A stretch of 63,022 bases of DNA, filler included, from Octopus bimaculoides (Eukaryota), in NCBI RefSeq assembly GCF_001194135.2. It is 10 parts of 10 records of this genome, joined end to end, with 100 filler letters (N's around TTAATTAATTAA, not from the genome) between each part and the next. Parts side by side here need not be neighbours in the genome. Positions count along the whole stretch, not along the records: positions 22,981 to 44,392 come from NC_068985.1; positions 44,493 to 48,871 come from NC_068981.1; positions 48,972 to 50,192 come from NW_026365867.1; positions 50,293 to 51,458 come from NC_069006.1; positions 51,559 to 52,752 come from NW_026413380.1; positions 52,853 to 54,332 come from NC_068983.1; positions 54,433 to 56,565 come from NW_026340853.1; positions 56,666 to 60,625 come from NC_069003.1; 2 more parts are not named here. One strand, given 5' to 3'. The position numbers were made by a program, and so were the translations under genes. This document shows, piece after piece, positions 41,744 through 61,396 of the stretch. The stretch's first letter is position 1. Each line of letters begins with the position of its first letter. The notes beneath the pieces were generated by a model. It did no database searches. It worked only from the letters and a program-made list of their open reading frames with translations, and had not been told where the DNA came from.

Positions 41744-42843
41744 GACAACAACAGTAGCAGTAGCCGCAGTGGCAGCACAACACCAATATCAATAATAATA
41801 ATGAAAAAGTACGATGGCCGAGAAGAACATCTAAAAAGGATTCTTGTCTGTAATTGTCACATATAATAGATTATGGCATTTTTCAGGAAACAGCCGGAAG
41901 GGGATTACGCTGGTTCTTACTTCTTGCAATTTTTCATTGGGCCGACCGGCCTGGCATGATGGCCTCAACCTCCCTATCTTTTCTACCACACACGTTCCCT
42001 CTTTTTTTTATTTCCTCTTCTTCTACTTTTACCACCTCTCCTTTTCTCAAACAGTTTGCTCTATTTCGTTTGCCTTACACAACAGATTTTTCAGTATGGT
42101 GAGAGCTTTATTATTATTACTGTTTTTTTCTTCTTTTTTTTTTTTACATCGGTTTTTCGTGTTAGCAAAGCTAATACAGAGATATGCTTTTAAATTTCGT
42201 TTAATTCCATTTCCCTTTTGCTGTTACTGCTTCATATTGGACAGGGTCAAAGAGTTATAGTGCTATATTAGAGGATGACTAGACTTTTACGTTTTATGGT
42301 CAATTATTACAGGGTGTCGCCATTAGGCATTGCACAATTTGCATCGTGCATTCTGCCGTTAATGAAACTGGAAAGGCAATACCACACAAATCTGCTAGAC
42401 GGGACCAGGAAAGAGAGGACAAGAGCAAGGACATCTACATGACAGGACAATGTATAACAGGGGTCAGGGCATGGCATGGCACTCCTGGGCAAACTCTATA
42501 CAGGATGGATGGAAGCTGTCCCCAAAACTAATAACGGTAATGGCAGCAAAAGCAACATTCCCATAACTAGCCACCGAATAAAGGACCGCTTTAAGTGCGA
42601 GAAATAGCAGGATCTACCTCAAGCAAACCCTCATAGCTTTAACAATTAAAAAAGGGACACATTGGATAAAGTGGTCTTTGTACATTGTTCATGAAAGAAA
42701 ATAGATGGAACGTTCATGGTTGGAAATAAGCAACTCAACAGGGCAAATTATAACATTTGTTTAAATTAAAATAAAGATATTTGTTTATAATCTACCTAAA
42801 GAAATAAAGGAGAAAATTTTAGTTCTAATACATGAAATATGGT

Positions 42844-42952
42844 TAAGGTGGCTAGCTGGCAGAGTCGTTAGCACCCCGGGGAAAATGCTTAGAAGCATTC
42901 GTCCGTCTTTAAGTTCTGAGTTCAAATTCCGCCGAGGTCGACTTTGCCTTTC
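42844..42952 (+). mobile_element. SINE family A, 3'-truncated next to the RLE element
   Basis: agctggcagagtcgttagcaccccggggaaaatgcttag...ttctgagttcaaattccgccgaggtcgactttgccttt. Confidence 0.85.
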
Positions 42953-42959
42953 CGAAAGT

Positions 42960-43981
42960 ACTGTCTACCTGATGACCTTCCATACAACCCCAAATCAGTC
43001 GGACAAGTATACCTCAAAGAAGAATGGACGTGAAATGCCTAGCATACAAAAAAAAAAAAAGAAAAAGAGAAGTAAAAGGAACCATACATGGGTATGTTTC
43101 TCGTAGACTTGAAGAAGATAGTAACATTAGAATGAACCTAAGCTTTTCTTAGACTCGTGACTACTACATTACATCACACTTCGAAGGCGATGTACTTTCA
43201 ATCCGAGAACAGGAGATTGCTAAAAGATAGCTAATCAAAAAAAAAAAAAATGAAACAGTGAATCCCTTGGATTTTCAAGATGCAGCCGTAAATGTAAATT
43301 ATGTCATATTTCTTTGGAAGATATCACACATGGGATTAGCAACTGCTCAAAAATATCGAGGTACTACTCCTTATGCGACATGACGTTATTGCAAAACAAT
43401 ATACAATGCTATTCGGATAAAAGACTGTCCTGGAATAAATATAGAGAATCTCTTTGCTATTGAATATGTACACAAATATCAGCACAAGGAATACTGGTGG
43501 AATATTGCCATCAAAACATCTGTCAAGTGTAAACATAACAAGACGGATATTATAGTTTGGGATAGACAAGAAAAAGTATGTGCCCACATAGAGATCATCT
43601 ATCCTGCTGATGTGTGAATATCTCTTTGAAAATTAAAGAGAAAAAGGTAAATTATGGCAACTGGTTCGAAACCTCCGGCTTCTGTATCCGGATTACAAAT
43701 TTACATTTAAACCAATAATAATTGGAGCAATTCATTTGGAAATAAATGACTAATTGTCAGTTTAGGTAAACTTGGATTTTCAGAAAAAGAAATCAACCAC
43801 CTGATTCGCACATTAGAAATACAGTCTGTAAGTGGCACAGTAAAATTATGCAAGACATTTCTCAGGTATAAAACGTGACGTTGCTTTCGTTATCTACATT
43901 CAAAAGATGGAGTTTCGTGCCTTTGATAGAAACCAGCTCCTTTTTCAGAGGCAGAATTTAAATGATCAAATACAGAAGAGA
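42960..43981 (+). mobile_element. RLE-type (R2/R4/NeSL-like) non-LTR retrotransposon, 3' fragment, pseudogenised
   Basis: Frameshifted translation: HGYVSRRLEED...YITSHFEG..IREQEIA...KCKLCH..EDITHGISNC (CCHC finger)...MRHDVIA...KEYWWNIAIKTSVKCKHNKTDIIVWDR (PD-(D/E)xK-like)...RNLRLLYPDYKFTFKPIIIGA...GTVKLCKTFLRYKT* with the stop at 43876-43878. A ~100-nt 3'UTR follows and runs into (CATA)n. Confidence 0.85.
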
Positions 43982-44231
43982 CATACATACATGCATACAT
44001 ACATACATACACACATACATACATTCTTAATACATATTTACATACATGCATACATTTACGTAACTAAGTTGTGGGTACTTATTTTATCGATCCCGAAAGA
44101 ATGAAAGGCAAAGTCGACATCAGCGGAATTTGATGTTAGATACGTTTATATATTTACTCTCTCCGGATTATACATGCTATCTCACAAACTTAACATTTTC
44201 TCCGCCGAATTAACTCTATCTATTTATCTAA

Positions 44232-44285
<54 letters not shown>

Positions 44286-44348
44286 CCCTCTTTCTCTCTC
44301 GCTATATATATGTATGTATGTGTATATATATGTATGTGTATATATGTT

Positions 44349-44392
<44 letters not shown>

Positions 44393-44760
44393 NNNNNNNN
44401 NNNNNNNNNNNNNNNNNNNNNNNNNNNNNNNNNNNNTTAATTAATTAANNNNNNNNNNNNNNNNNNNNNNNNNNNNNNNNNNNNNNNNNNNNTACATCCT
44501 CGCCAGAAATAGGGAAAGAGGGCGGCTTATAAATGCCAAAACCTACCCTGGCAAAGAATGTACCCCACAACATAGATTAGTAGTTAGCGACTTTGGGATC
44601 AAGGCAAAATGGGTGCCCAGAATTAGACCGGCTTGGAGGAGAAGGGTGTGGAAGCTTAAAGACCTTGTAAATGGACAGAGACTTAGAGACAAGTTACTTG
44701 AAGCATTTAACGAAATAGAAGGGGATATAGCATCATACAATGTGGAAGACAATTGAAGAT

Positions 44761-45440
44761 TAGTTATAATTTATAGTAAATTACAATATAAGATTAGGTC
44801 TTAAGGTAGGCCACATTAGTGTATAATTTACCAATAGCAGTTGTGGTCTTTACTAAAACTCTTAGTGACAATTGAGTATTGAGTTCCATTGTAATAGAGA
44901 ATTGACTATAATCTATAGTACATTGTAGTATAATAATAATAATATAATATTAAATATTAAGGCAGGCCATATTAAAATATAAAAGTTACAAATAGCGGCT
45001 GTGGTTTTGCCATAAACTTCTAGGGGCAATATAGTATTGATTCCATTATAATGGAGAGTTATTTATAACTTATAGTACATTATAGTGTAATACTAGATCT
45101 TAAGGCAGGCCATATAAATGTATAACTTAAGAATAGCAATTGTGGGTTTTGCATAAGCTCCTAGAGGTATGATAACACACTATAGATCTCCATTATAATG
45201 GAATATAATTTATAATTTATAGTGCATTATAGTATAATATTAGGCCCTAAAGCAGGCCATATTAATATATAACTTACATATAGCAGCCGTGGTTTTTGCA
45301 AAAGCTCCCAGAGATAATAATTCCTATTGTATTTGAGGGTTATTTATAATTTATATTTTATAATACAGTGTAGTATAATATTAGGTCTTAAGACAGGCAT
45401 ATCAATGTACAATTTACCAATAGCAATTGTGGGCTTTACA
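44761..45440. repeat. Degenerate ~143-bp tandem array (~4.7 copies)
   Basis: The anchor motif (tt)aaggcaggcca recurs at ~44808, 44964, 45107, 45254 and 45395 (spacing 141-156). The motifs aatagc..tgtgg and tatagtacattatagt recur between the anchors. Confidence 0.8.
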
Positions 45441-46461
45441 ATATCTCATAGGATAATTTAATTTCTATTAGAATAGATGTTTGGTTAAAAATTGTGAACA
45501 TTTCCCATAATATTGCAAGGGGTTGCCTCCCCTTAATCGACTTTCGTTTAGGAAGGGACAAATTTAATGAGTCATTTAACGACAAATTTAAATATGGACG
45601 AAACCTAGAAATGTGGTATTGATCTCCTATTTTCAACTTTTGTTTGATTTTTGTTTGTTCTCAAATGTATTCCCTGAAGACGTGTAAGGCAACTTAAATT
45701 TGACGGTCAAATATAGCTTTATACAGAAATGTTGACATAGGAATAAATTACAATGATAATGGATATTAGCGTCAAATCTCTCTCTTAAATTTAAATTTAA
45801 AACTTTGGATATGTATATATATATATATATATATATNNNNNNNNNNNNNNNNNNNNNNNNNNNNNNNNNNNNNNNNNNNNNNNNNNNNNNNNNNNNNNNN
45901 NNNNNNNNNNNNNNNNNNNNNNNNNNNNNNNNNNNNNNNNNNNNNNNNNNNNNNNNNNNNNNNNNNNNNNNNNNNTGGAGGTTTCTGTGGGACAACCTCC
46001 TGAAGGCCACTCACCAGATCTGTGGATGGTGCATAGTCCCCTCTTGACCCAAAATAGCGTGGTGGTGGGACAATGTTGTTGACAGGGTTATTAGACAAAA
46101 GAAACAGGCTTGGAAAGACTGGAAGAATGGTGGTAGCAGGGAATTGTATCAGACTGCTAGAAGGGAAGCTAGGAGACAGGTTTATCTAACCAGAGGGGAA
46201 GCAGATAAGAAAAAATTTGCCAATGTTCTGCGCCGTGAGGACCAAAGACTTGAGGTATTTCGTGTTGCAAGTCAGTGTGTGAGAGAGAATCATGATGTTG
46301 TTGGAGAGAAATGTGTCCACATAGATGATGGTTCACTTGCACTAAACATGGCTGCAAAGAGAGAGGTTTGGTGATGCCACCATGAAAGTTTGCTCAATAA
46401 AGAGAATGAATGAGAGAAAGTCAACCCAACAGACGGACCAGCTATCCGAGTTGACAGTACC

Positions 46462-47316
46462 ATGGTAGATAAAGCAATTAAGAGTATGAAGACAGGGAAA
46501 GCCGCCGGCCCATCAGGAATCACTGCAGAGATGCTCAAAATATCTGGCAGTGTCGGCTATAGCCTAGTCACCCGTATAGTTAACCAGGTTATACACGAAG
46601 GAGTCATACCTAATGGCTGTTGTAGCAGCACCATAGTCAACTGCTACAAAGGTGAAGGTGATGCTTTAGATACAAGTAATTACAGAGGTATCAAGTTGTT
46701 GGATCAGGTAATGAAAGTTACAGAGAGGGTCATAGCTCAACTAATTAGGGAGAGAGTCAGTTTAGATGAGATGAAGTTTGGGTTTGTGCCAGGGAAAAGC
46801 ACCACTTATGCTATATTTCTGATAAGACAGCTGCAGGAGAAATACCTAGCCAAAGATAAACCTCTGTACCTGGCTTTTGTTGACATGGCGAAAGCCTTTG
46901 ACACGGTCCCCCGTTCTCTTTTCTGGTGGTCAATGAGGAAACTAAGGATAGATGAATGGATAGTTAGAGCTGTGCGAGCCATGTACAGGGATGCTGTCAG
47001 TAAGGTGAGGGTTGGCAATGAGTACAGTGAAGAATTCCAGGTAGAGGTAGGGGTCCACCAAGGTTCAGTTCCCAGCCCCCTTTTATTTATCATAGTCCTC
47101 CAGGCAATAACAGAGGAATTCAAGACAGGATGCTCCTGGGAGCTCCTCTGTGCTGATGACCTTGCACAAGTTGCTGAGTCACTATCAGAACTAGAGGGGA
47201 AGCTTCAGGTGTGGAAGCAAGGACTAGAATCGAAGGGCCTTAGAGTCAACCTAGCTAAAACCAAAGTCCTAATAAGTAGGAAGGTAAACAAAATGCAAAC
47301 CCCTTCAGGTAGATAG
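46462..47316 (+). pseudogene. Reverse transcriptase domain of the RTE LINE (longest intact stretch, 284 aa)
   Basis: ORF motifs KAAGPSGI, YRGIKLLDQVMKV, FGFVPGKSTT, FVDMAKAFDTVPR, VGVHQGSVPSPLLFII and LCADD (YADD mutated to CADD). Stop codons flank it on both sides. Confidence 0.93.
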
Positions 47317-48646
47317 CCCTGCTCGATCTGTAGAAAAGGCGTAGGTAGAAACTCTATAAGATGTACCTAGTATAAGCTATGGACACATAAGAGATGCAGC
47401 AATATCAAAGGAATGCTAACTAGAAGTCGTTGATTGCTTCCATTACCTATGTGACCAAGTCAGTAGTGGGGGCAGGTGCTCTGAAAGTGTAGCTGCTAGA
47501 ATAAGAATAGCCTGGGCAAAGTTCAGAGAGCTCTTACCTCTGCTGGTGACAAAGGGCCTCTTGCTCAGAGTAAAAGGTAGACTGTTTGACGCATGTGTAC
47601 GAACAGCCATGCTACATGGCAGTGAAACATGGGCCATGACTGCTGAGGACATGCGAAAAAGTGCCACACCCTAGCAGTTGAGGGAACCTGTGGAAGAGGT
47701 AGACCCAGGAAGACCTGGGATGAGGTGGTGAAGCACTATCTTCGAACATTAGTCCTCTCTGAGGCAATGACTAGTGATTGAGACCTTTGGAAATATGCTG
47801 TGCTTGAGAAAACCCGTCAAGCCAAGTGAGACCATAATCTATGGCCTCTGCCAGAAGTGTAGCCAGCCCACTGATGCATACCTTTCCTTCATTGGACACT
47901 AAACTCTGCTTGCGAAGACCTGTTGAGGCGAGTGAAATTGAAATTGTAATTGAACCAAATTCGATGACTGGCACCTGTGCCAGTCTAATGCTAACAGCTC
48001 TATCTGAGCATGATCATTGCCAGAGTAGCTGTCTAGCTTCCGTGCCAGTAGGACATGAATAGCACTATTTGAGCATGATCGTTACTAGTAACACCCTACT
48101 GGCACTTGAAAAAAACATTCGAGCGAGGTCGCTCCCAGTGCCGCTGGTCCGACTGCTATGCAGGTGGCACATAAAAAACACCATTTTGAGTGTGGCCATT
48201 GCCAGTACTGCCTGACTGGCCCTCGTGCTGGTGGTACGTAAAAGCACCCACTACACTCTCGGAGTGGTTGGCGTTAGGAAAGGCATTCAGCTGTAGAAAC
48301 TCTGCCAGATCAGATTGGAGCCTGGTTCAGCCATCTGGTTTGCCAATCCCCAGTCAAATCGTCCAACCCATGCTAGCATGGAAAGCAGACGTTAAACGAT
48401 GATGATGATGAATACACAAACTTTTATATATTTTCATATAAACATATGATATGTTTATTTCTCCATTATTCTTTCCTTTATGGAGTAGATGAAATGCTGC
48501 GGGAAGTGGAGAGGGGTTATTTTTGTTCATTCACGTAATCTAATTCGTCATCTATTGTTTTGAAAGGCCTTGACATTGTTATGGTTGGTTTATTGATAAT
48601 TGATAAAATAAAACAAATTAGGCAAAAATGTGTGTGCGGGTATATA

Positions 48647-48871
48647 TCTATATATATAAAAATGAGAATGTGTGTCTGTCTGTCTGTCTGTGTGAATTCC
48701 TAAAACTCGAGAACTACGCAACCAATTTCATTCAAATTTTACACATGCCTTACTTAGGGTTCCAGTTGTGTTTTAATCAAAAAAAATGTTAACTTCTTCC
48801 AGAGTTCGAGCCCACAGCAACATAATATCTCCTCCACTATTTAAGTATTACGTGTCAAAAGTGAAACAAAA
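48647..48871 (+). mobile_element. Helitron-like non-autonomous element, 5' end (3' end lost in gap)
   Basis: Begins A|TCTATATATATAAA, then a (GTCT)n tract and aactacgcaaccaatttcattcaaattttacaca. This is the layout of the 5' ends of small animal Helitrons. No CTRR 3' end is visible. Confidence 0.55.
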
Positions 48872-49030
48872 NNNNNNNNNNNNNNNNNNNNNNNNNNNNN
48901 NNNNNNNNNNNNNNNTTAATTAATTAANNNNNNNNNNNNNNNNNNNNNNNNNNNNNNNNNNNNNNNNNNNNGGTAAGCAAGCTACTTACCACACAGCCAC
49001 TCCTGCGCCTATAATAATAATGATAATAAT

Positions 49031-49195
49031 TTTTGACCAGATCCTCAGGAAAGCCAGGAACCTTGTAGATTGCTACTAGATTAAAAAATTTGTGCTGACA
49101 TCAACTGCTCACCTCAGGAAGTTTCTCTCCATTTAATACATAGATGTCTTAGGTCTTTAGTTGAGACCCTGCTGGAAGATGAAATAAAATGGAAA
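49031..49195 (+). mobile_element. R4/Dong-like RLE retrotransposon extreme 3' fragment
   Basis: 49080-49136 translates IKKFVLTSTAHLRKFLSI*, resembling the R4-clade C-terminus (QKxVLLGTAHILRKVL). It is preceded by a (TAA)n-like tract. Confidence 0.55.
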
Positions 49196-49210
49196 TCAAG
49201 CATAAAATTT

Positions 49211-49745
49211 TTAAAATGATGATGATTTCTTTTCTTTTGCCACCAGGGCGAAGGATGAGGGGAACAATACAAAGACAGACATAAAGTGTGGGCATTTACA
49301 TATAAGGAAAGGATTTAGAAAAATATAGCATACATGGTATACATTAAAAGAAGAGACGTATACATAGTATATGACAGTAAGAGAATTAAAAGAAAAAGGT
49401 GATAGTGATGGGGTCCTCCTCATACAGAAGGACATCTATGGATAATCAAGAAACCCCATTCAAGATGTCCCTTACTACCAAGGGCAAGTGCCCTCTCCAA
49501 CCAGACTACCAGCAACAAACACCAAACTTTTCACTAACACCTTGGCCAAAATCTTAAACTCTGTGTTCTGCCATATAAAAGCTTTCCAACAAGTATGCAT
49601 GGAGAGGAATTTTCCACACGTAGATCCATGCTCTCACAAGCCCAATTGGTGGCAGCTCTGCTTTGTGGTAGACTTCCAAATTGGAAACACATAAAAAAAG
49701 AAGTTGATAGTGATGGGGTCCTCCTCATACAGGAGGACATCTAGT
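49211..49745 (-). mobile_element. L1/Tx1-like LINE derivative: RT N-terminal piece fused to the 3'UTR
   Basis: Minus strand reads NTEFKILAKVLVKSLVFVAGSLVGE (L1-type RT), followed directly by 3'UTR gagagggcac...gattatccataga and an (ATC)n tail. Confidence 0.65.
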
Positions 49746-49750
49746 GTTCC

Positions 49751-49869
49751 ACCAAAGTCAGCCTTGGTAGAATTTGAACTCAGAACATGAAGACGGACGA
49801 AATGCTGCTAAGCATTTTTTTCCGGGGGTGCTAACGATTCTGCTAACGATTCTGCCAGCTTGCTACCTT
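49751..49869 (-). mobile_element. SINE family A, 5' half, in the intron just upstream of the TERT exon
   Basis: gaatttgaactcagaacatgaagacggacgaaatgctgctaagcat...gctaacgattctgccagcttgctacc. Confidence 0.8.
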
Positions 49870-49913
49870 TCTCAATAATGATTCGTTAAATTGTTGGTGT
49901 TTATTTCTTGCAG

Positions 49914-50007
49914 GTTTTTATATTTTGTTAAAGTGGATATAAAAAAGTGTTACGACTCTATGAAACATGATGTTTTGATGGAGATAATTACAGATGCCTT
50001 GAAGCAG
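49914..50007 (+). CDS. TERT: Single internal exon of telomerase reverse transcriptase (RT motif A region)
   Basis: Acceptor gtttatttcttgcAG ends at 49913 and donor GTgagt starts at 50008. The exon is 1 nt plus 31 codons with no stop: FLYFVKVDIKKCYDSMKHDVLMEIITDALKQ. It aligns by eye to human TERT [30 protein letters not shown]; the catalytic Asp codon GAT is at 49936-49938. It is too short for the ORF track, and no other TERT exon was recognised. Confidence 0.8.
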
Positions 50008-50336
50008 GTGAGTTATGTGCAGGTATGCGTTTTAGCATGGGAGTGTGTGATAGTGTGGTAGTATGCACATATATGTGTATTTAGTAATAAACTCTAACAA
50101 AGGACCTAATATTAACTTAATAGATTATATACTAACACACACATGCATATAAAGCTGCTGATTGGTTGCAACTCAGTAAGAAATAAGGCGGTNNNNNNNN
50201 NNNNNNNNNNNNNNNNNNNNNNNNNNNNNNNNNNNNTTAATTAATTAANNNNNNNNNNNNNNNNNNNNNNNNNNNNNNNNNNNNNNNNNNNNTATATATA
50301 TATATATATATACATGCACACACACACACACACACA

Positions 50337-50375
<39 letters not shown>

Positions 50376-51132
50376 GTGTAATCCACAGTTAATCTTTCCC
50401 CGTATGCACGATTTTTTTCCTGATTTCCTTCGTCTACCTAATTATCCTACCTCTCCGACATAATTTCTAGAAATATGGATTTGTCTGTCTACCCATCTAA
50501 CTGTTTATCTACCTTGAAACATACACCTCCCTACCACCGCACATACCCAAATACAATCCCCCCCACATACGCACACACACGCACATATATATATATATGC
50601 ATACACATACTAAGACACACATGCACATATCTTTATATCATATAAGTACAACTACATATGTATGCATTTGTTTACGTATTTCTGTATACCCGTGTGTCTG
50701 TGTATATATGTATATATATGCTGTTTTACATGTGCGTACTCTTGGATGATTGTATGTGTGTGTGATACAACGAGATGGAGATTAAATGTGTTGCAGTTTA
50801 AAGAAATAAAATGTGACTTCTCTTCTGTGTTCGTCTTCGGGTTTGATGGATGAATGGATCCTGCAGGCAGGCATCAATAAACGTATTGCGCTATGGGTGA
50901 CTACACTGACGCTCAACCATTTGTAATATATATACACGTGTATGTATGTATATATGTGAGTGGAAGTGTGTATGTTATACAATCAGCGATCATCTTTATA
51001 TTTGCGATTTTATGATATATGAATGCATGATTTTACGACATTATATTGATTGCGTATTTTCTTTTCTGTGATCACGATCTCACTCTATTCTATTTCTCTG
51101 TCCGCCTTTATATATATATATATATCACTTTC

Positions 51133-51181
<49 letters not shown>

Positions 51182-51734
51182 ATATCTTGTTCTTGTCTTC
51201 TCCATCTCTATGTCTGTCCGACTGTCTCTGTCTCTGTTCTGCTCATATGCTGTGGGTATCCATCCCACTCTGTATTGTCCTTTATGTTTCCACTTCTTTT
51301 TATTATTCTAAACAACCATGGTACCTGCCTTTGTCTCCGTATTGTCAAACCTCTACAATTCGCTGATATGTGTCCACAGAGATTGTGTGTGTGCATAAAT
51401 TCTCTTGGGACGTCATATAGATATATATATGTAAATGTATGTATATATATATATATATNNNNNNNNNNNNNNNNNNNNNNNNNNNNNNNNNNNNNNNNNN
51501 NNTTAATTAATTAANNNNNNNNNNNNNNNNNNNNNNNNNNNNNNNNNNNNNNNNNNNNGTATGTACGTGTGTATGTATGTGTGCATGTATGTATATCACA
51601 TGATTACCAGATCAACCAGACTATACATCACTGGTCACAATGCACTTTGCATTATCTTAGCTATCGAATGATGCAACCCAGTTGGCTAGATAAGCAGCCA
51701 GGCATTCTCCCTGATCAGAAAGGTTGTATGTCGA

Positions 51735-51875
51735 AGGGTTAACTATTTACAGCTGAGTGGACTGGGGCAATGGGAGATGAAGTGTTTCGCTCAAGAACAC
51801 AACACAGTCCAGGAATTGAAACCACAATTTAGAATTCATAAGTACAACATTGTAAATACTTGACCACGTGTCTTC
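51735..51875 (-). mobile_element. Diverged tRNA-derived SINE
   Basis: Minus strand: gaagacacgtggtcaag...gtggtttcaattcctggactgtgttgtgttcttgagcgaaacacttcatctc..tgccccagtccactcagctgtaaat. Confidence 0.65.
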
Positions 51876-52942
51876 ACACACACACACACATACACAAATA
51901 TATGCTATGTAGACTTTAAAAACGTGTGTATATGTGCACATATGCCATCAATGCAGACATATCACACATGCAATGGCATGCATCAGTGCACTCACATATG
52001 CATATAGACACATACATACATGACTACTTAATCGATGTGATGCTAACTAAGTTATAATGAAAGAGTATCATTCCTGGGCTAGAAGCCAGCTTTTTCTCCA
52101 TTTAAAAATAAAACCATCAGATAGAAAGAACACATATACATTTATACACACATACTCATACATTACATACATACTTATACATTATATAATATATACATGC
52201 ATATTACAAACATCAATCCATATTAAACTAATTACATATATATCCACATACATACATACACAAATANNNNNNNNNNCCATATTAAACTAATTACATATAT
52301 ATCCACATACATACATACACAAATATTACATAAGTATACACATAACACATACATATTACACGCATACATAATATATACATATATCCATTCAACCAGTGAT
52401 CTTATTCATCCATCCATACACATCTACATACATATGTACATAATGCATATATATACATATATACATAATATATACATACATATATACAAACATTCATGCA
52501 AACTTGTGTATACTTATGCTTAAGGAGATCATTGTATTTCAGAAACAAAACTCTCAAACAGACAAATGTAATGTTATTCAGAATTAATAAATTGAACACA
52601 GTTCCTGCTGTTTCGTAGATAATGGCGTTGGAATATAGAAAAGAAATCAGATGGAATCAATTAGAAAGGCTGCAAGAGGCTATCACATTACTATTGATAT
52701 AAGTGATGTGTATAAAAGCATAAAAGCAATATATATCAAATATATATATATANNNNNNNNNNNNNNNNNNNNNNNNNNNNNNNNNNNNNNNNNNNNTTAA
52801 TTAATTAANNNNNNNNNNNNNNNNNNNNNNNNNNNNNNNNNNNNNNNNNNNNTCAAAAATATCGAAGCAGTAACTTTCATAAATAAGGGTATAATTGTTG
52901 AAGACTCTTTCTGAACCCAGTCAACGACGGGTATTTCTGCTA

Positions 52943-52981
<39 letters not shown>

Positions 52982-53725
52982 ACTTTGTGACATAAAACAT
53001 GAGTAGATTGCTAATGACAATGATTTACCCAATGTAATTGAAACCGCAACCATAACGAAAGAGCGTGATATTTTATATATAGTACTCTAGTGCTTTGAGC
53101 TATAGCAAGCCTCTATAGCATCATTCAACCTGATAGAAATACCAGCTAAATTTCTACACATGTATCCAACAGTCTAAATAAAAAAAAATGGGTATAGTTA
53201 TGCCTGGAAGCTCTTTGATCATAAGTCTATTTAGTCAGAGTAAACTACTAGTTAAATAACAACTGTGATACTGTTTATATATATTCTAGTAAATTCACAC
53301 CATCAGACTAACGATTGTGATAATATTTATATGAAGCCTAGTGTACATAATCACATCACATATTATAAGTGTGATAATGTTTACATATTGGTAGCCTAGA
53401 AAAAATATTTTTTTCTCTCTTGCAGTTCCAATTTCTATAGACATATTTGAATATTAAATGAGAAAGTTAGACTTTTTTTCCTGAGATGCTCTCCACATTT
53501 TGGTTGTTTATTCTGCGCACTTTTTGCAGGATTATAAGAAATATCAAAATTATAAATAACCGGTTAATTATAATGTATGTTACATAATTTGACCAATGAC
53601 TTTTTAGTGGAAACAGGTAGACGGAAAGTGTGAACAAGCCAGTCATATACATGTATGTGTCTATATGTGTGCGTGTGCGCGCGCGCGTTAGTGTGTGCAT
53701 ATGTATATATAAATATGTATGTATG

Positions 53726-53876
53726 ATTTAATATGCACAGGATTTAAATTCGAGCTACTATTAGTTTCATACAAAGAAAACACGATGGTCGGACACACTA
53801 GTAGTACGTGCCGTGTGTTTCCAAAAAAACCTTCAGACTATAAGTAGCTAGAATTTAAACCCCGTGCATATTAAAT
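53726..53876. mobile_element. ~150-bp MITE / foldback with ~35-bp imperfect inverted repeats
   Basis: atttaatatgcacaggatttaaattcgagctact versus agtagctagaatttaaaccccgtgcatattaaat. Confidence 0.72.
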
Positions 53877-54279
53877 GTTTCTGAGTGGAGTACGTTTTTG
53901 TTGATCCCATCAATAACAGAACACTATGTATATACATATGCATATATAATTGTCATAACAATTACATTTTCCGCATTATTTTACAGAATTTTAACACTTG
54001 CAAAAACTGTTCGTAAGTGTATGAACAATTCTCATGATAAGAGTAACTTGAAGTAATAGTGAAACATGTTTTGTATTACAAATTAAGCTCTGTGTCCAAC
54101 ATTGAGCGTTTTTCATCAGTAAATGCATGTTATCAGGCTTTACTTATTAACCCTAAAGTTTTTAGTTCGAATGCATATATCTATATATCTATCCTTATAC
54201 ATACCTGTCATTCTGTCAATCAATCTATCTATCTTTGTCTATCTACCCACCTCTTTCTCTCTCACTCTTTCTCTCTCTC

Positions 54280-54332
<53 letters not shown>

Positions 54333-54432
54333 NNNNNNNNNNNNNNNNNNNNNNNNNNNNNNNNNNNNNNNNNNNNTTAATTAATTAANNNNNNNNNNNN
54401 NNNNNNNNNNNNNNNNNNNNNNNNNNNNNNNN

Positions 54433-56565
54433 ATCGCTAACTGTAGATACAGATAGAGGCGGGGCTGATAGAGAAGATGTGCGTGGGAGAGAGGAAGAAT
54501 GTGGAGTAAAAGGAGCTCACTTTCGTCGCTAACTGTAGATGCAGATAGAGGCCGGGCTGATAGAGAAGATGTGCGTGAGAGAGAGGAAGAATGTTAAGTA
54601 AAAGGAGCTCACATCCATCGCTAACTGTAGACGCAGATAGAGGCGGGGCTGATAGAGAAGATGTACGTGCGAAAGAGAAAGAATGTGGAGTAAAAGGAGC
54701 TCACCTTCGTCCCTAACTGTAGATGCAGATAGAGGCTGATAGAGAAGATGTGCGTGAGAGAGAGGAAGAATGTAGAGTGAAAGGAGCTCACCTTCGTCGC
54801 TAACTGTAGATGCACATAGAGGCGGGGCTGATAGAGAAGATGTGCGTGAGAGAGAGAAAGAATGTGGAGTAAAAGGAGCTCACCTTCGTCGCTAACTGTA
54901 GATGCAGATAGAGGCGGGGCTGATAGAGAAGATGTGCGTGAGAGAGAGGAAGAATGTTGAGTAAAAGGAGCTCAACTTCGTCGGNNNNNNNNNNNNNNNN
55001 NNNNNNNNNNNNNNNNNNNNNNNNNNNNNNNNNNNNNNNNNNNNNNNNNNNNNNNNNNNNNNNNNNNNNNNNNNNNNNNNNNNNNNNNNNNNNNNNNNNN
55101 NNNNNNNNNNNNNNNNNNNNNNNNNNNNNNNNNNNNNNNNNNNNNNNNNNNNNNNNNNNNNNNNNNNNNNNNNNNNNNNNNNNNNNNNNNNNNNNNNNNN
55201 NNNNNNNNNNNNNNNNNNNNNNNNNNNNNNNNNNNNNNNNNNNNNNNNNNNNNNNNNNNNNNNNNNNNNNNNNNNNNNNNNNNNNNNNNNNNNNNNNNNN
55301 NNNNNNNNNNNNNNNNNNNNNNNNNNNNNNNNNNNNNNNNNNNNNNNNNNNNNNNNNNNNNNNNNNNNNNNNNNNNNNNNNNNNNNNNNNNNNNNNNNNN
55401 NNNNNNNNNNNNNNNNNNNNNNNNNNNNNNNNNNNNNNNNNNNNNNNNNNNNNNNNNNNNNNNNNNNNNNNNNNNNNNNNNNNNNNNNNNNNNNNNNNNN
55501 NNNNNNNNNNNNNNNNNNNNNNNNNNNNNNNNNNNNNNNNNNNNNNNNNNNNNNNNNNNNNNNNNNNNNNNNNNNNNNNNNNNNNNNNNNNNNNNNNNNN
55601 NNNNNNNNNNNNNNNNNNNNNNNNNNNNNNNNNNNNNNNNNNNNNNNNNNNNNNNNNNNNNNNNNNNNNNNNNNNNNNNNNNNNNNNNNNNNNNNNNNNN
55701 NNNNNNNNNNNNNNNNNNNNNNNNNNNNNNNNNNNNNNNNNNNNNNNNNNNNNNNNNNNNNNNNNNNNNNNNNNNNNNNNNNNNNNNNNNNNNNNNNNNN
55801 NNNNNNNNNNNNNNNNNNNNNNNNNNNNNNNNNNNNNNNNNNNNNNNNNNNNNNNNNNNNNNNNNNNNNNNNNNNNNNNNCCTAACTGTAGATGCAGATA
55901 GAGGCTGATAGAGAAGATGTGCGTGAGAGAGAGGAAGAATGTTGAGTAAAAGGAGCTCAACTTCGTCGGTAACTGGAGATGCAGATAGAGGCGGGGCTGA
56001 TAGAGAAGATGTACGTGTGAAAGAGAAAGAATGTGGAGTAAAAGGAGCTCACCTTCGTCGCTAACTGTAGATGGAGATAGAGGCTGATAGAGAAGATGTG
56101 CGTGAGAGAGAAAAAGAATGTGGAGTGAAAGGAGCTCACCGTCGTCGCTAACTGTAGATGCAGATAGAGGCGGGGCTGATAGAGAAGATGTGCGTGAGAG
56201 AGAGGAAGAATGTTGAGTAAAGGGAGCTCACATCCATCGCTAACTGTAGATGGAGAGAGAGGCGGGGCTGATAGAGAAGATGTACGTGAGAAAGAAAAAG
56301 AATGTGGAGTACAAGGAGCTCACCTTCGTCGCTAACTGTAGATGGAGATAGAGGCTGATAGAGAAGATGTGCGTGAGAGAGAGAAAGAATGTGGAGTGAA
56401 AGGAGCTCACCTTCGTCGCTAACTGTAGATGGAGATAGAGGCTGATAGAGAAGATGTGCGTGAGAGAGAGAAAGAATGTGTAGTGAAAGGTGCTCACCTT
56501 CGTCGCTAACTGTAAATGGAGATAGAGGCTGATAGAGAAGATGTGCGTGAGAGAGAGAAAGAATG
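54433..56565. repeat. 92/87-bp satellite array (about 14 units visible, more in the internal gap)
   Basis: Unit cgctaactgtagatgcagatagaggcggggctgatagagaagatgtgcgtgagagagaggaagaatgtggagtaaaaggagctcaccttcgt (92 bp). The short variant lacks 5 bp in gaggcggggctg. Confidence 0.95.
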
Positions 56566-56665
56566 NNNNNNNNNNNNNNNNNNNNNNNNNNNNNNNNNNN
56601 NNNNNNNNNTTAATTAATTAANNNNNNNNNNNNNNNNNNNNNNNNNNNNNNNNNNNNNNNNNNNN

Positions 56666-56697
<32 letters not shown>

Positions 56698-57159
56698 TAT
56701 ATACATATATATGTGTGTGCGTGCGGATATATACATATAAATTTATGTATGTATATATATATATACTTATGTGTACATATATATATTTTACGTATATATG
56801 TATATATACATATGTATGCATATATATGTACATGAAGTTGTTTGTACGCGTGTCTGTGTGTGTGTATGTATGTACAGAGACGGAGTGTGTAAGCGTGTGT
56901 ATGTGTGTGTGTGTATCTATGTCTGTGTGTACGTGGCTGTTTGTGTGTATGTTTGTGTGTGTGTGTGTGTTTGTGTGTGTGAAGTACCACTCATTTGTCA
57001 TTTCTTTGTCTTAGTCATTAATCAAAGATTAATTAACCGTTTTTCACTTTACTTCAGACGAAATGGTTCAATGATATCTGGCTTCTGTTTATGTCATTAA
57101 ATGCCTCTCTCTAATAGCAAACCGTTAATTACAATGATTCCTAACAAAAACATAAAAGC

Positions 57160-57305
57160 CACAAATTTTGAGGTGATGGTCATAGTTGTGTAGATTCGAT
57201 TATTGTTGATATCAACAATCGATAAGAACTTAATATTTTATCGATCCTGGAAGTTATTAAAGGCTAAAACTGACCACAGTTAAATTTGAACTCAGAACGT
57301 AACGG
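57160..57305 (-). mobile_element. SINE family A, diverged
   Basis: ttttatcgatcctggaag...ttaaatttgaactcagaacgtaa. Confidence 0.65.
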
Positions 57306-58410
57306 AAGGCGAGTGTTTCTTATATACCACGAAAAACCTTGCTTCATGTCATACAAGAAAACCCACAAACAAAATTAAAGAGAAAAAGTTTCAAAAGATC
57401 GCCTCCGGGCCTAAGAGCAAAGTTAAAGTTAAAACAAATTTCCTCCTAAATATGAACTGCTGAAGTTGGTGCTTGTCTGAGACACCCATATCGTTTATTT
57501 TATACCATTAAACTACNNNNNNNNNNNNNNNNNNNNNNNNNNNNNNNNNNNNNNNNNNNNNNNNNNNNNNNNNNNNNNNNNNNNNNNNNNNNNNNNNNNN
57601 NNNNNNNNNNNNNNNNNNNNNNNNNNNNNNNNNNNNNNNNNNNNNNNNNNNNNNNNNNNNNNNNNNNNNNNNNNNNNNNNNNNNNNNNNNNNNNNNNNNN
57701 NNNNNNNNNNNNNNNNNNNNNNNNNNNNNNNNNNNNNNNNNNNNNNNNNNNNNNNNNNNNNNNNNNNNNNNNNNNNNNNNNNNNNNNNNNNNNNNNNNNN
57801 NNNNNNNNNNNNNNNNNNNNNNNNNNNNNNNNNNNNNNNNNNNNNNNNNNNNNNNNNNNNNNNNNNNNNNNNNNNNNNNNNNNNNNNNNNNNNNNNNNNN
57901 NNNNNNNNNNNNNNNNNNNNNNNNNNNNNNNNNNNNNNNNNNNNNNNNNNNNNNNNNNNNNNNNNNNNNNNNNNNNNNNNNNNNNNNNNNNNNNNNNNNN
58001 NNNNNNNNNNNNNNNNNNNNNNNNNNNNNNNNNNNNNNNNNNNNNNNNNNNNNNNNNNNNNNNNNNNNNNNNNNNNNNNNNNNNNNNNNNNNNNNNNNNN
58101 NNNNNNNNNNNNNNNNNNNNNNNNNNNNNNNNNNNNNNNNNNNNNNNNNNNNNNNNNNNNNNNNNNNNNNNNNNNNNNNNNNNNNNNNNNNNNNNNNNNN
58201 NNNNNNNNNNNNNNNNNNNNNNNNNNNNNNNNNNNNNNNNNNNNNNNNNNNNNNNNNNNNNNNNNNNNNNNNNNNNNNNNNNNNNNNNNNNNNNNNNNNN
58301 NNNNNNNNNNNNNNNNNNNNNNNNNNNNNNNNNNNNNNNNNNNNNNNNNNNNNNNNNNNNNNNNNNNNNNNNNNNNNNNNNNNNNNNNNNNNNNNNNNNN
58401 NNNNNNNNNN

Positions 58411-58444
<34 letters not shown>

Positions 58445-58446
58445 CA

Positions 58447-58476
<30 letters not shown>

Positions 58477-58477
<1 letters not shown>

Positions 58478-59005
58478 TTTGGATAGAGAAGAGGAACTGT
58501 GTACAGTTGTGGAAATTACCTGCCGAGCAGATGTTAACGTAAAGCTGAAGATCAGTGAAAAAGAGAACACCTATGCTGAACTATTGAGAAATCTGCAGTT
58601 CCTCGATCCAGATTACAAGTTCAGTTTTATACCTGTAATTATTGGGGGCCTTGGGATATGTAACACACTACCTAAATAACGATCTTGAGAAATTAAGCTT
58701 CTCAAAACCAGAAAGGGGAAATCTAATTCGAAGACTACGGATCCAGTCATTCACTGGGACTGTAAAAATCTGTAAAACTTTCCAGAAGTTTATCATTTAA
58801 ATATATATGAGCATGTCTAGATATGCAACTTTAGGCATGAGAATACATACATAAAACATACAAATCTGCACATATACATACATACTTGCAAGCAAAAATA
58901 CCCTGTTGTTGATGTGGAAATTGCAATGAAGGAGCCTTGGCTTCTAGGTTAGAAACCGACTCTTTCTCTATTGGTAAGAAATTTTGAAATAAAACTGAAC
59001 AATGA
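58477..59005 (+). mobile_element. Second, divergent 5'-truncated copy of the same RLE-type retrotransposon lineage
   Basis: LDREEELCTVVEITCRADVNVKLKISEKENTYAELLRNLQFLDPDYKFSFIPVIIGGLG, then a frameshift, then ...LEKLSFSKPERGNLIRRLRIQSFTGTVKICKTFQKFII*. The 3'UTR shares a tagaaacc motif with the 42960 copy. It is flanked by (CATA)9 on the left and CATACATAC on the right. Confidence 0.85.
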
Positions 59006-60387
59006 CATACATACTTATAACAGTATAAGTATACAGAATTACCTGACAGGAAAAAAAAATAGGTGTTTTTACATGCTTATATCTCTACTTATACAAACAC
59101 ACACACATACACTCATGCACACACTCATACACATATGTATACGCATATGTGTCTATAAGCTACACACCCACACACAGCTGCTTGAGGTTACAATTTTGAC
59201 GTAAGTTGACACAACCTGTCTCAACTTTGTCGACCGTACGTTGGTATTTATGTTTTCTTAGCGACTTCCATAAACTCTGAGTACATTTCATCGGGGTTAG
59301 TGGTAGCACAGGCGATGGTAGCGGTGGTGACGGTTGTTGTAATAGAAGTTGCTATTGTGGTTGTGGTGGTGGTGGTCGTCGTGGTCGTCGTCATTGAGGT
59401 GGTTGTGGTGAAGATGGCGGTAGTGGTGAAGATGGCGGTAGTGGTTCTCTATTGAAATGTGTTTTGAGTTTGTTTTTCTTTTCCAAAACGCACTTATTTT
59501 ACGTGAGGAAAATTTGACTGCTATTTCTTGCATTGAGGAACCTTTCCCGTTAAATATCTGATACCGTATATTGCACTGCCTTATTACAAAGAATTGTCTG
59601 AGAAAATGCTTAAAGGATACATGTAGCTGTGAAATATTGAACCTATATTTATTTTACACAGTCTAAGAACCAGGAGATAGTTCAGTTATCAGAAAGTGTG
59701 TATGCGTGTGCATGTGTGTGTAGATATGTATNNNNNNNNNNNNNNNNNNNNNNNNNNNNNNNNNNNNNNNNNNNNNNNNNNNNNNNNNNNNNNNNNNNNN
59801 NNNNNNNNNNNNNNNNNNNNNNNNNNNNNNNTAGGCGTATACGTGACCAGACAGCTATCTCTAAGAAACTGGGATCATTACAGTTGTGATAGAAAAACAG
59901 TGAGAGGAGACAACTACAGCAACGAATACGACAATGAGAGGAACGGCTGAGACGATTTCGGTCAATAAGAAAAGAATTATTGTATGATTCTGTTTGTTCC
60001 TGCGTTCCCGTCTGTTTCGTCCGTGTGTTACGCTTACGTCACCAAGCGAAGTTACAACTCGAATGGAGAAACATATCTAGAGAGAGGTAAGAAGGCGAAA
60101 AATGGAGACAAAGAAAGAAACGAAATGGGAATAGTTGAATCAGCGGAAAACTAGTAAGGGCAACAAGAAGGAGAGGGGGAGAGAAGGGGGATAGAGAGAG
60201 AAAGAGAAAGAGAGAGGGATAAAGAGACAGATAGACAGAAGGAAAAGATCTATACCAATAGAGAGAGAGAGAGGGGGGGAAAAGGTATATATTGAGAGAG
60301 AATAGGAGGGGAGAAGGTCTACATTTGTGTGTTAAAAACGCAGGTACAATCGAAATGTTTAACATAATGAAACGATGTCATGCTGAT

Positions 60388-60725: not shown

Positions 60726-61396
60726 GGCTTCACAAGCGGGCTTCACAAAGTACTGTTACTTTCTGTGTCTCTGGGACAGTCGGGCTGAGTCTAAGCACTA
60801 CAAACAGAAGGACTGGAGATCTAGGAGCACTTTCGTGCCTGGTAAACACAATGTCCAAGAAAATCCTCTGGTGGACATGAACAAAGTGCTTCTTTCTCCT
60901 CTTCATATCAAGTTTGGTTTATTGAAGAATTTCGTGAAGGCCATGGACAAAAATGGTGCTGCTTTCCAACACTTATGCAATCTGTCCCCAGCTCTGAGTT
61001 CTGCTAAGCTCGAGGGGGGCATCTTCGTCGGACCTCAGATCCGAGAGGTGCTGACGGATAAGGATTTTGAGGAGCTTCTTACCTTAAAGGAACTGAGAGC
61101 ATAGGAAACATTTAAGTCAGTCTGCCATGACTTCCTTGGTAACACACAGGTACTAGATTACAAAGAGTGTATCGAGAAGTTGTTACAATCTTATGAGGAT
61201 ATGGGATGCCGTATGTCACTCAAAATTCACTTTCTCCACTCCCACCTCAACGTCTCCCCCCCCCCAAGCTCGGAGCAGTGAGTGATGAACACGGAGAAAA
61301 GTTCCACCAAGATATTACTAAGATGGAGAGCAACTGTCAAGGCGTGACATCCTAGAGGTAAAGTACAGAAGATCGTCCAAAAACACTCACTTCTGA
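60726..61396 (+). pseudogene. Chapaev3-like (CMC superfamily) DNA transposase, C-terminal half
   Basis: GFTKYCYFLCLWDSRAESKHYKQKDW...PLVDMNKVLLSPLHIKFGLLKNFVKAMDK...GIFVGPQIR...ELRA* (TAG at 61102), then FLGN...MGCRMSLKIHFLHSHL, a poly-C frameshift, LGAVSDEHGEKFHQDITKME, a short deletion and RDILEVKYRRSSKNTHF*. The family call rests on recalled Chapaev3 motifs, not a database search. Confidence 0.8.

What the first reader, a model, noticed from the sequence alone, without database searches (positions are those of the whole stretch)
42960..59014. Candidate (CATA)n-microsatellite-targeting RLE retrotransposon lineage (copies at 42960-43981 and 58477-59005)
Seen: two clearly divergent copies encode the same RLE C-terminus (WDRQEKVCAHIEI...RNLRLLYPDYKFTFKPIIIGA versus LDREEELCTVVEI...RNLQFLDPDYKFSFIPVIIGG). 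Their 3'UTRs differ in length, yet both end at the same junction, GA|CATACATAC (43981 and 59005). The 5'-truncated copy also starts right after a (CATA)9 tract. Established: RLE-encoding non-LTR elements (R2, R4, Dong, NeSL) are often sequence-specific, and Dong targets (TAA)n microsatellites. Inference: this lineage cuts (CATA/TATG)n tetranucleotide arrays, a target I do not recall being described. That would make it a site-specific element exploiting this genome's abundant microsatellites.
Basis: partly seen in the sequence, partly recalled or inferred. Interest (0 to 1): 0.75.

Follow-up and report, generated by a model that had tools for sequence, protein, structure and literature searches.

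The report
Dong retrotransposon targeting CATA microsatellites
The two fragments are decayed ends of a high-copy jumping gene, likely from an octopus, whose copies sit with CATA repeats on both sides in one fixed direction, likely because its enzyme cuts repeats that were already there; I found no paper giving this target for this group, whose known microsatellite target is TAA.

Summary
Both fragments are 5'-truncated, decayed 3' ends of a ~4-kb RLE LINE of the Dong/R4 group, with at least three subfamilies (A, B, young C) and thousands of candidate copies.

CATA lies directly upstream of 41/47 C, 55/85 B and 24/61 A 5' junctions. The reverse orientation (TATG) occurs at 2/193. Background is 1.1%, and a SINE control gives 0/30. 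The 3' junction has a fixed phase (|ACAT). Two young copies split a CATA tract that is ancestral inside older copies. So CATA is not only a tail, and targeting is the best reading, though no empty site was recovered.

Metagenome relatives in the same clade are flanked by (CATA)n or (CTTA)n; more distant ones by (TAA)n.

Dong-R4 in octopus, microsatellite targeting by Dong (TAA) and ACAY targeting by the APE-type Waldo are all published. This scan already reported the CATA idea on another genome (e1-10354414). Verdict: real, a new target variant of a known kind.

The parts
42956..43981 (+). Copy A: decayed, 5'-truncated 3' kilobase of an old subfamily (A) of the Dong/R4-type LINE: thumb/linker, CCHC finger near 43290-43347, RLE (RPD motif decayed to KTD), short 3'UTR
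   Evidence: 77% to another A copy over 42956-43981; tblastn to full-length homolog P0004 aa 893-1149, E 2e-26
43982..44024 (+). Imperfect (CATA)n tract after the 3' end of copy A
42838..42955 (+). SINE fragment abutting the 5' truncation of copy A, with no CATA here (counter-example); start approximate; the SINE label rests on my recall of octopus SINEs plus its copy number
58441..58476 (+). (CATA)9 tract directly upstream of the 5' truncation of copy B, preceded by (TA)n and an assembly gap
58478..59005 (+). Copy B: 5'-truncated 3' end (RLE C-terminus plus 3'UTR) of subfamily B
   Evidence: 86% to a full-length B copy
58843..58890 (+). Internal CATA-like tract in the B-subfamily 3'UTR; the homologous tract is the insertion site of young C copies at L215 and L252; bounds approximate
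59006..59014 (+). Short CATACATAC after the 3' end of copy B

Best explanation
These are decayed copies of a ~4-kb single-ORF LINE with reverse transcriptase, CCHC finger and restriction-like endonuclease, which sit with (ACAT)n repeats on both sides in one orientation, likely because the element inserts into pre-existing (ACAT/ATGT)n microsatellites by target-primed reverse transcription.

Shown: domain order; grouping with Dong/R4; CATA at 5' and 3' junctions on one strand; fixed 3' phase; variable 5' phase with mostly 0-3 nt overlap; nesting into an ancestral CATA tract.

Inferred from R2 biology: the RLE nicks the ATGT strand; the freed 3' end primes cDNA synthesis at the RNA 3' end, perhaps helped by a few ACAU units on the RNA; the truncated cDNA joins the upstream tract by microhomology.

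More speculative: the N-terminal three-helix domain reads the upstream tract, as the R2Bm Myb reads its upstream motif. That would explain why 5' tracts of young copies tend to be longer than 3' tracts.
For: (score at least 16/20 to CATA within 8 bp of the junction): 5' junctions 41/47 C, 55/85 B, 24/61 A; TATG 0/47, 1/85, 1/61; background 1.1% CATA and 1.4% TATG in 25,197 windows from 20 fixed 10-kb regions.

SINE 5' flanks 0/30.

CATA is the best unit at 41/47 C junctions, although TA, TG and CA are commoner in background; the score rises with copy identity (Spearman 0.35, p 7e-7, n 193).

CATA precedes full-length 5' ends (6 of 6 B; 2 of 2 A, one of them CA-rich). One search shows the same for one C 5' end.

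33/45 C ends read TA|ACATA; 27 of the 30 B ends with a recognisable terminus continue ACA (18 of 48 had none).

two C copies split the B 3'UTR tract, which the anchored pattern found in 28 B copies at 13-119 bp.

8 of 9 distinct head-to-tail pairs join different subfamilies.

relatives L297 and L298 have CATA on both sides; L302 has CTTA on both sides.
Against: No empty allele or orthologous empty site was seen, so apart from two nested cases the prior existence of the 5' tract is inferred.

73 of 193 5' junctions miss the threshold, including the window's copy A. That fits decay and later rearrangement but is not shown copy by copy.

The 5'-longer-than-3' asymmetry is weak in C (18/26, p 0.048; two of the 26 rows used a wrong 3' end), absent in B and reversed in A.

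No TSD can be read inside the repeat. The Myb-like fold match is weak (best Z 5.0). No intact ORF was found; the longest stop-free stretch was 433 aa. Loci were best hits of capped searches, not a random sample.
Confidence: 0.82

Rival explanations
1. CATA is an element-encoded tail, and the 5' tracts are made during insertion: the RT jumps to the (CAUA)n tail of another RNA, or slips and adds repeats, at sites with little or no prior repeat.
For: 5' tracts of young copies are long and pure (median 25 vs 16.5 bp). All four phases occur at 5' junctions. Some 3' tracts are only 5-9 bp. No empty site was recovered.
Against: Two C copies sit in the one internal CATA tract that is ancestral in B. 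Chains mostly join subfamilies of different age. Many 5' tracts grade into long, mixed, aged microsatellites. An unrelated RTE-like LINE uses the same arrays from the other strand.
Confidence: 0.12
2. Insertion is unspecific, and copies pile up or survive in microsatellite-rich DNA.
For: The genome is very rich in microsatellites; 43 perfect CATA runs of 12 bp or more lie in 181 kb of background.
Against: Strand bias of 120 CATA vs 2 TATG among 193 junctions; unit specificity; SINE control 0/30; the signal is strongest in the youngest copies.
Confidence: 0.03
3. The microsatellites arose after insertion, by slippage at the junctions.
For: The B-subfamily internal tract does vary from 13 to 119 bp among copies, so slippage acts on these tracts.
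Against: Truncation points fall all along the 4 kb with unrelated sequence, yet all gain the same unit in the same orientation. The youngest copies (mean 98.6% pairwise) have the most and purest tracts, which is opposite to the prediction.
Confidence: 0.03

Closest known systems
Dong elements of the R4 clade (B. mori Dong, DongAg, DongBg, ostracod Dong1/2)
   Same: Single ORF with RT and RLE, no N-terminal zinc finger, microsatellite insertion site. RT is 33-38% identical to TAA-flanked relatives and to Bombyx/Pediculus proteins.
   Different: The published target is (TAA)n (PMC3812793, PMC7998251, passages read). Here it is (ACAT)n, and the elements form a separate well-supported clade.
Octopus 'Dong-R4' LINE families in repeat annotations (PMC8967140, PMC13282606, PMC9115989)
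   Same: Likely the same or overlapping families: abundant, expanded in coleoids, with 51 families and five recently active ones reported in O. vulgaris.
   Different: The passages found by term search give no target sequence. I could not match sequences to those libraries; one supplement file searched held no Dong entry.
Waldo (WaldoAg1/2, WaldoFs1)
   Same: Targets ACAY microsatellites, which include ACAT (PMC3812793, passage read).
   Different: Waldo has an APE-type endonuclease (R1 clade by my recall). The element here has a C-terminal RLE, so the shared target would be convergent.
R4 of nematodes (28S rDNA, 13-bp TSD; PMC6895275, passage read)
   Same: Same clade architecture. An R4-like element (L313, in 28S rDNA with a 13-bp duplication) was recovered with the same query, at 28-32% RT identity.
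   Different: rDNA target and a readable TSD.
HERO and Togen microsatellite-specific RLE families (PMC4640811, passages read)
   Same: RLE elements with microsatellite specificity; Togen targets (TG)n.
   Different: Different clades; no reference sequences were on hand for a direct comparison.

Membership tests
R4/Dong clade | Single ORF: RT followed by CCHC finger and PD-(D/E)xK restriction-like endonuclease | tested here: met
   RVT_1 E 3e-15; CRLC...H...C and HNRPDI...VVEI in young copies; the family profile aligns to an R2 structure from RT through RLE, E 1e-48
R4/Dong clade | No N-terminal zinc fingers | tested here: met
   0 of 86 full-length homologs have the pattern in their first 300 aa; none seen in translated 5' ends of A, B and C copies
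R4/Dong clade | Divergent N-terminal Myb/SANT-like domain (PMC7998251) | tested here: inconclusive
   Three-helix model, pLDDT 85; best VIA matches ISWI Z 5.0, Sap1 4.8, GT-1 4.4, all below a trustworthy level; Foldseek none at E<=0.001; the region aligns with the Bombyx and Pediculus N-termini
R4/Dong clade | RT closer to Dong/R4 than to R2 | tested here: met
   Bombyx and Pediculus proteins E about 1e-66 vs R2 structures 1e-14; 33-38% identity to TAA-flanked relatives, which are 30-36% to the R4-like L313. That the Bombyx and Pediculus proteins are Dong-type is inferred; no source names them so
R4/Dong clade | Monophyly with R4/Dong in a tree rooted with R2, NeSL, HERO and CRE references | not testable with these tools
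   No such reference sequences could be fetched; trees are FastTree trees without an outgroup
Dong in the strict sense | (TAA)n target | tested here: not met
   TAA or TTA is the best unit at 2 of 193 5' junctions, CATA at 114
R4 in the strict sense | 28S rDNA site with 13-bp TSD | tested here: not met
   Copies are dispersed over many contigs in microsatellites
Waldo | APE-type endonuclease | tested here: not met
   The N-terminus is a short helical domain and the nuclease is a C-terminal RLE
HERO / Togen | RT phylogenetic position | not tested
   No reference sequences available

The most novel reading that the evidence does not exclude
A distinct, unnamed Dong/R4 subclade, probably of marine invertebrates, has switched from the trinucleotide TAA to tetranucleotide targets that differ by one base (ACAT in octopods and two metagenome elements, ACTT in six others). 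In octopus, one subfamily carries its own target inside the 3'UTR and each insertion leaves two usable tracts, so the element multiplies its own landing sites and helps build the genome's CATA microsatellite load. The ACAT/ACTT pair would be a natural experiment for mapping RLE-LINE specificity.
Probability: 0.35. Interest if true: 0.6.

Novelty: new variant of a known kind. Interest (0 to 1): 0.42.

Why it matters
Dong elements were thought to use (TAA)n across insects, molluscs and cnidarians (PMC7998251). A tetranucleotide-targeting branch with ACAT and ACTT variants at about 55% RT identity gives closely related proteins with a one-base difference in target. That is a handle on how zinc-finger-less RLE retrotransposons choose sites, which matters to R2-type gene-insertion work. 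It also gives a site preference to one of the most abundant and reportedly still active octopus LINE groups, which affects how its insertions are called in short-read data and how octopus microsatellites are interpreted. Target switching among microsatellites is itself well known, so the surprise is moderate.

Tried and rejected
Empty-site search with read laying on L211 and L219, using three related organisms and same-species runs: uninformative, because contigs break and reads are skipped at the repeats.

L266 looked like a paralog of L211 but shares only the RTE-like piece.

Paralogous empty sites among my loci: only the two B-3'UTR nests were informative; a search for copies of the repeat flanking L223 found none.

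One search was run on unoriented loci and discarded.

One search had false junctions from a reference with an internal deletion and was redone. still holds at least two doubtful rows (L153-, L204+) and one misplaced junction (L117, true CATA tract 32 bp upstream); none were removed from the counts. Rows classed as duplicate, edge, N-gap, internal break or reference end were excluded (146 rows).

IQ-TREE did not run and the intended outgroups were too short, so one search is a midpoint-rooted FastTree.

Pfam gave no significant hit for the RLE fragments. Foldseek gave no significant hit for the N-terminal model.

The original Dong paper was not held. Literature searches that found no CATA/ACAT target for an RLE element. 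Repbase Reports, Dfam and Kojima & Fujiwara 2003/2004 were not searchable, so absence from print is not established.
Full report
Observation. Both fragments and both junctions are as described. They lie in separate stretches of the pack and on different contigs of a 2.34-Gb genome. The genome is likely an octopus. The basis is my recall of its SINEs, an Argonauta protein in the same RT clade and published Dong-R4 expansions in coleoids. Copy A spans 42956-43981 and copy B 58478-59005. Both are 5'-truncated and decayed. Copy A abuts a SINE fragment and lacks an upstream CATA tract.

The element. Searches of the own genome gave 5,667, 4,159, 2,776 and 12,254 first-look candidates, of which only 40 or 150 were scored each time. 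Three subfamilies were resolved: A (old, 69-85% between copies), B (78-91%) and C (young, mean 98.6% among the top hits). B and C are about 72% identical and A about 65%. A fourth type of 3' end flanks L212. A full-length B copy is 4,036 bp. Full-length 5' ends were found for B, A and one internally deleted C copy. The ORF has an N-terminal helical domain, RT, a CCHC finger and an RLE with HNRPDI...VVEI. No intact ORF was found; young copies end at assembly gaps. The family covers 1,325 of 180,760 background bases, 0.7%, a rough figure.

Target test. I mapped junctions against natural reference copies and scored the flank for a match of at least 16/20 to (CATA)n within 8 bp. At 5' junctions the counts are 41/47 for C, 55/85 for B and 24/61 for A. 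The reverse unit TATG gives 0, 1 and 1. Background is 1.1% and 1.4%. At 3' ends the counts are 33/45, 29/48 and 20/41. A SINE in the same loci gives 0/30. CATA is the dominant unit although TA, TG and CA are commoner in background, and the score rises with copy youth. This rules out a tail-only reading and passive accumulation. Caveats: the loci are best hits, 146 rows were excluded as duplicate, edge, gap, internal or reference-end, and a few doubtful rows remain in the counts.

Junction anatomy. The subfamilies end in different sequences (C ...GATTGATA, B ...AATAATG, A ...GAAGAG) and then continue ACAT: 33/45 for C, 27 of 30 recognisable for B, and less clearly for A (7 exact of 19 recognisable, 41 in all). 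A fixed phase fits a defined nick on the ATGT strand, but a few ACAU units on the RNA would look the same. At 5' junctions of 46 C copies, 39 had a run of 8 bp or more, all four phases occurred, and 25 showed 0-5 nt overlap with the element, as expected for microhomology joining. In C, 5' runs tend to be longer than 3' runs (median 25 vs 16.5; 18/26; p 0.048), but not in B or A. R2Bm needs an upstream motif read by its N-terminal domains and not the downstream sequence (PMC10499050, passages), so the upstream-reading idea is an analogy, not a result.

Did the tract exist first? Two C copies split the single internal CATA tract of the B 3'UTR, which is present at 13-119 bp in 28 B copies found by an anchored pattern. 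Eight of nine distinct head-to-tail pairs join different subfamilies. An unrelated RTE-like LINE has TATG at 15/26 5' junctions and CATA at 0/26, so it uses the same arrays from the other strand. Attempts to see an empty allele failed, so synthesis of the 5' tract during insertion is not excluded.

Relatives. A metagenome scan returned 33 loci; I read the ends of 19 with a C-terminal match and scanned the ends of all 33. L297 and L298 have (CATA)n on both sides. L302 has (CTTA)n on both sides, L296 at the 5' end, and L300, L303, L304 and L312 at the 3' end. L310, L311 and L321 have (TAA)n next to the element. L313 lies in 28S rDNA with a 13-bp duplication, as published for R4. In the RT tree, all CATA- and CTTA-flanked elements that were long enough to include (L312 was not), the octopus subfamilies and the Argonauta protein form one clade of 47 with support 0.997, apart from the TAA-flanked and insect proteins. 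ACAT and ACTT elements are interleaved within it. Several members have no readable flank, and these contigs are collapsed assemblies, so their targets are less firm than the octopus result.

What is known. Dong targets TAA and Waldo targets ACAY (PMC3812793, passages; that review groups Dong with APE elements). Dong uses TAA in most insects, molluscs and cnidarians and has a divergent Myb (PMC7998251, abstract and passages). Some HERO and Togen families are microsatellite-specific (PMC4640811, passages). Octopus Dong-R4 is abundant (PMC8967140, PMC13282606, PMC10294476, passages). One study found no sign of recent activity for an O. bimaculoides Dong consensus (PMC9115989, passages); whether that is subfamily C is unknown, and two of its supplements were too large to read. 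PMC7650587 (passages) added nothing on targets. Nine searches found no CATA/ACAT target for an RLE element, but Repbase and Dfam were out of reach.

Verdict. A real, strand-specific association of a Dong/R4-type LINE with (ACAT)n, best explained by sequence-specific insertion (0.82). It works like Dong but fails Dong's TAA criterion. It is a new target variant of a known kind, already noted once by this scan on other DNA. The additions here are the quantified controls, the nested insertions and the ACAT/ACTT subclade. Interest 0.42.

Noticed in passing
L211:1087-1490 (minus) and loci L265-L294: A high-copy RTE-like LINE 3' end (label from my recall of the C-terminal motif) has (TATG)n at 15/26 5' junctions and 14/27 3' ends and never CATA upstream, so it shares the arrays in the opposite orientation. 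Some copies sit in B-subfamily tails or the internal tract.
   Followed up: partly
L296, L300, L302, L303, L304, L312: Metagenome relatives flanked by (CTTA)n, a second tetranucleotide target in the same clade; some have 3'UTRs of about 1 kb.
   Followed up: partly
L313:1-126 and 4961-5050: R4-like element in 28S rDNA just downstream of the R2 site, with a 13-bp duplication.
   Followed up: partly
L212:1190-1390: 3' end of a further, more divergent subfamily of the same LINE, followed by ACATACAT and then a young C copy.
   Followed up: no
L250:1040-1832: Internally deleted young copy joining the subfamily C 5' end directly to the 3' end; possible non-autonomous derivative.
   Followed up: no
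window 46414-47316 (+): 300-aa stop-free RT fragment of another LINE clade, probably RTE-like, 22% to the R4-type homolog.
   Followed up: no
window 54433-56565: Tandem array of roughly 90-bp units filling this stretch (repeating peptide pattern).
   Followed up: no
window 60726-61104 (+): ORF fragment with a KQKDW...R/LLxPLHIKxGL motif typical, by my recall, of a DNA-transposon-derived family.
   Followed up: no
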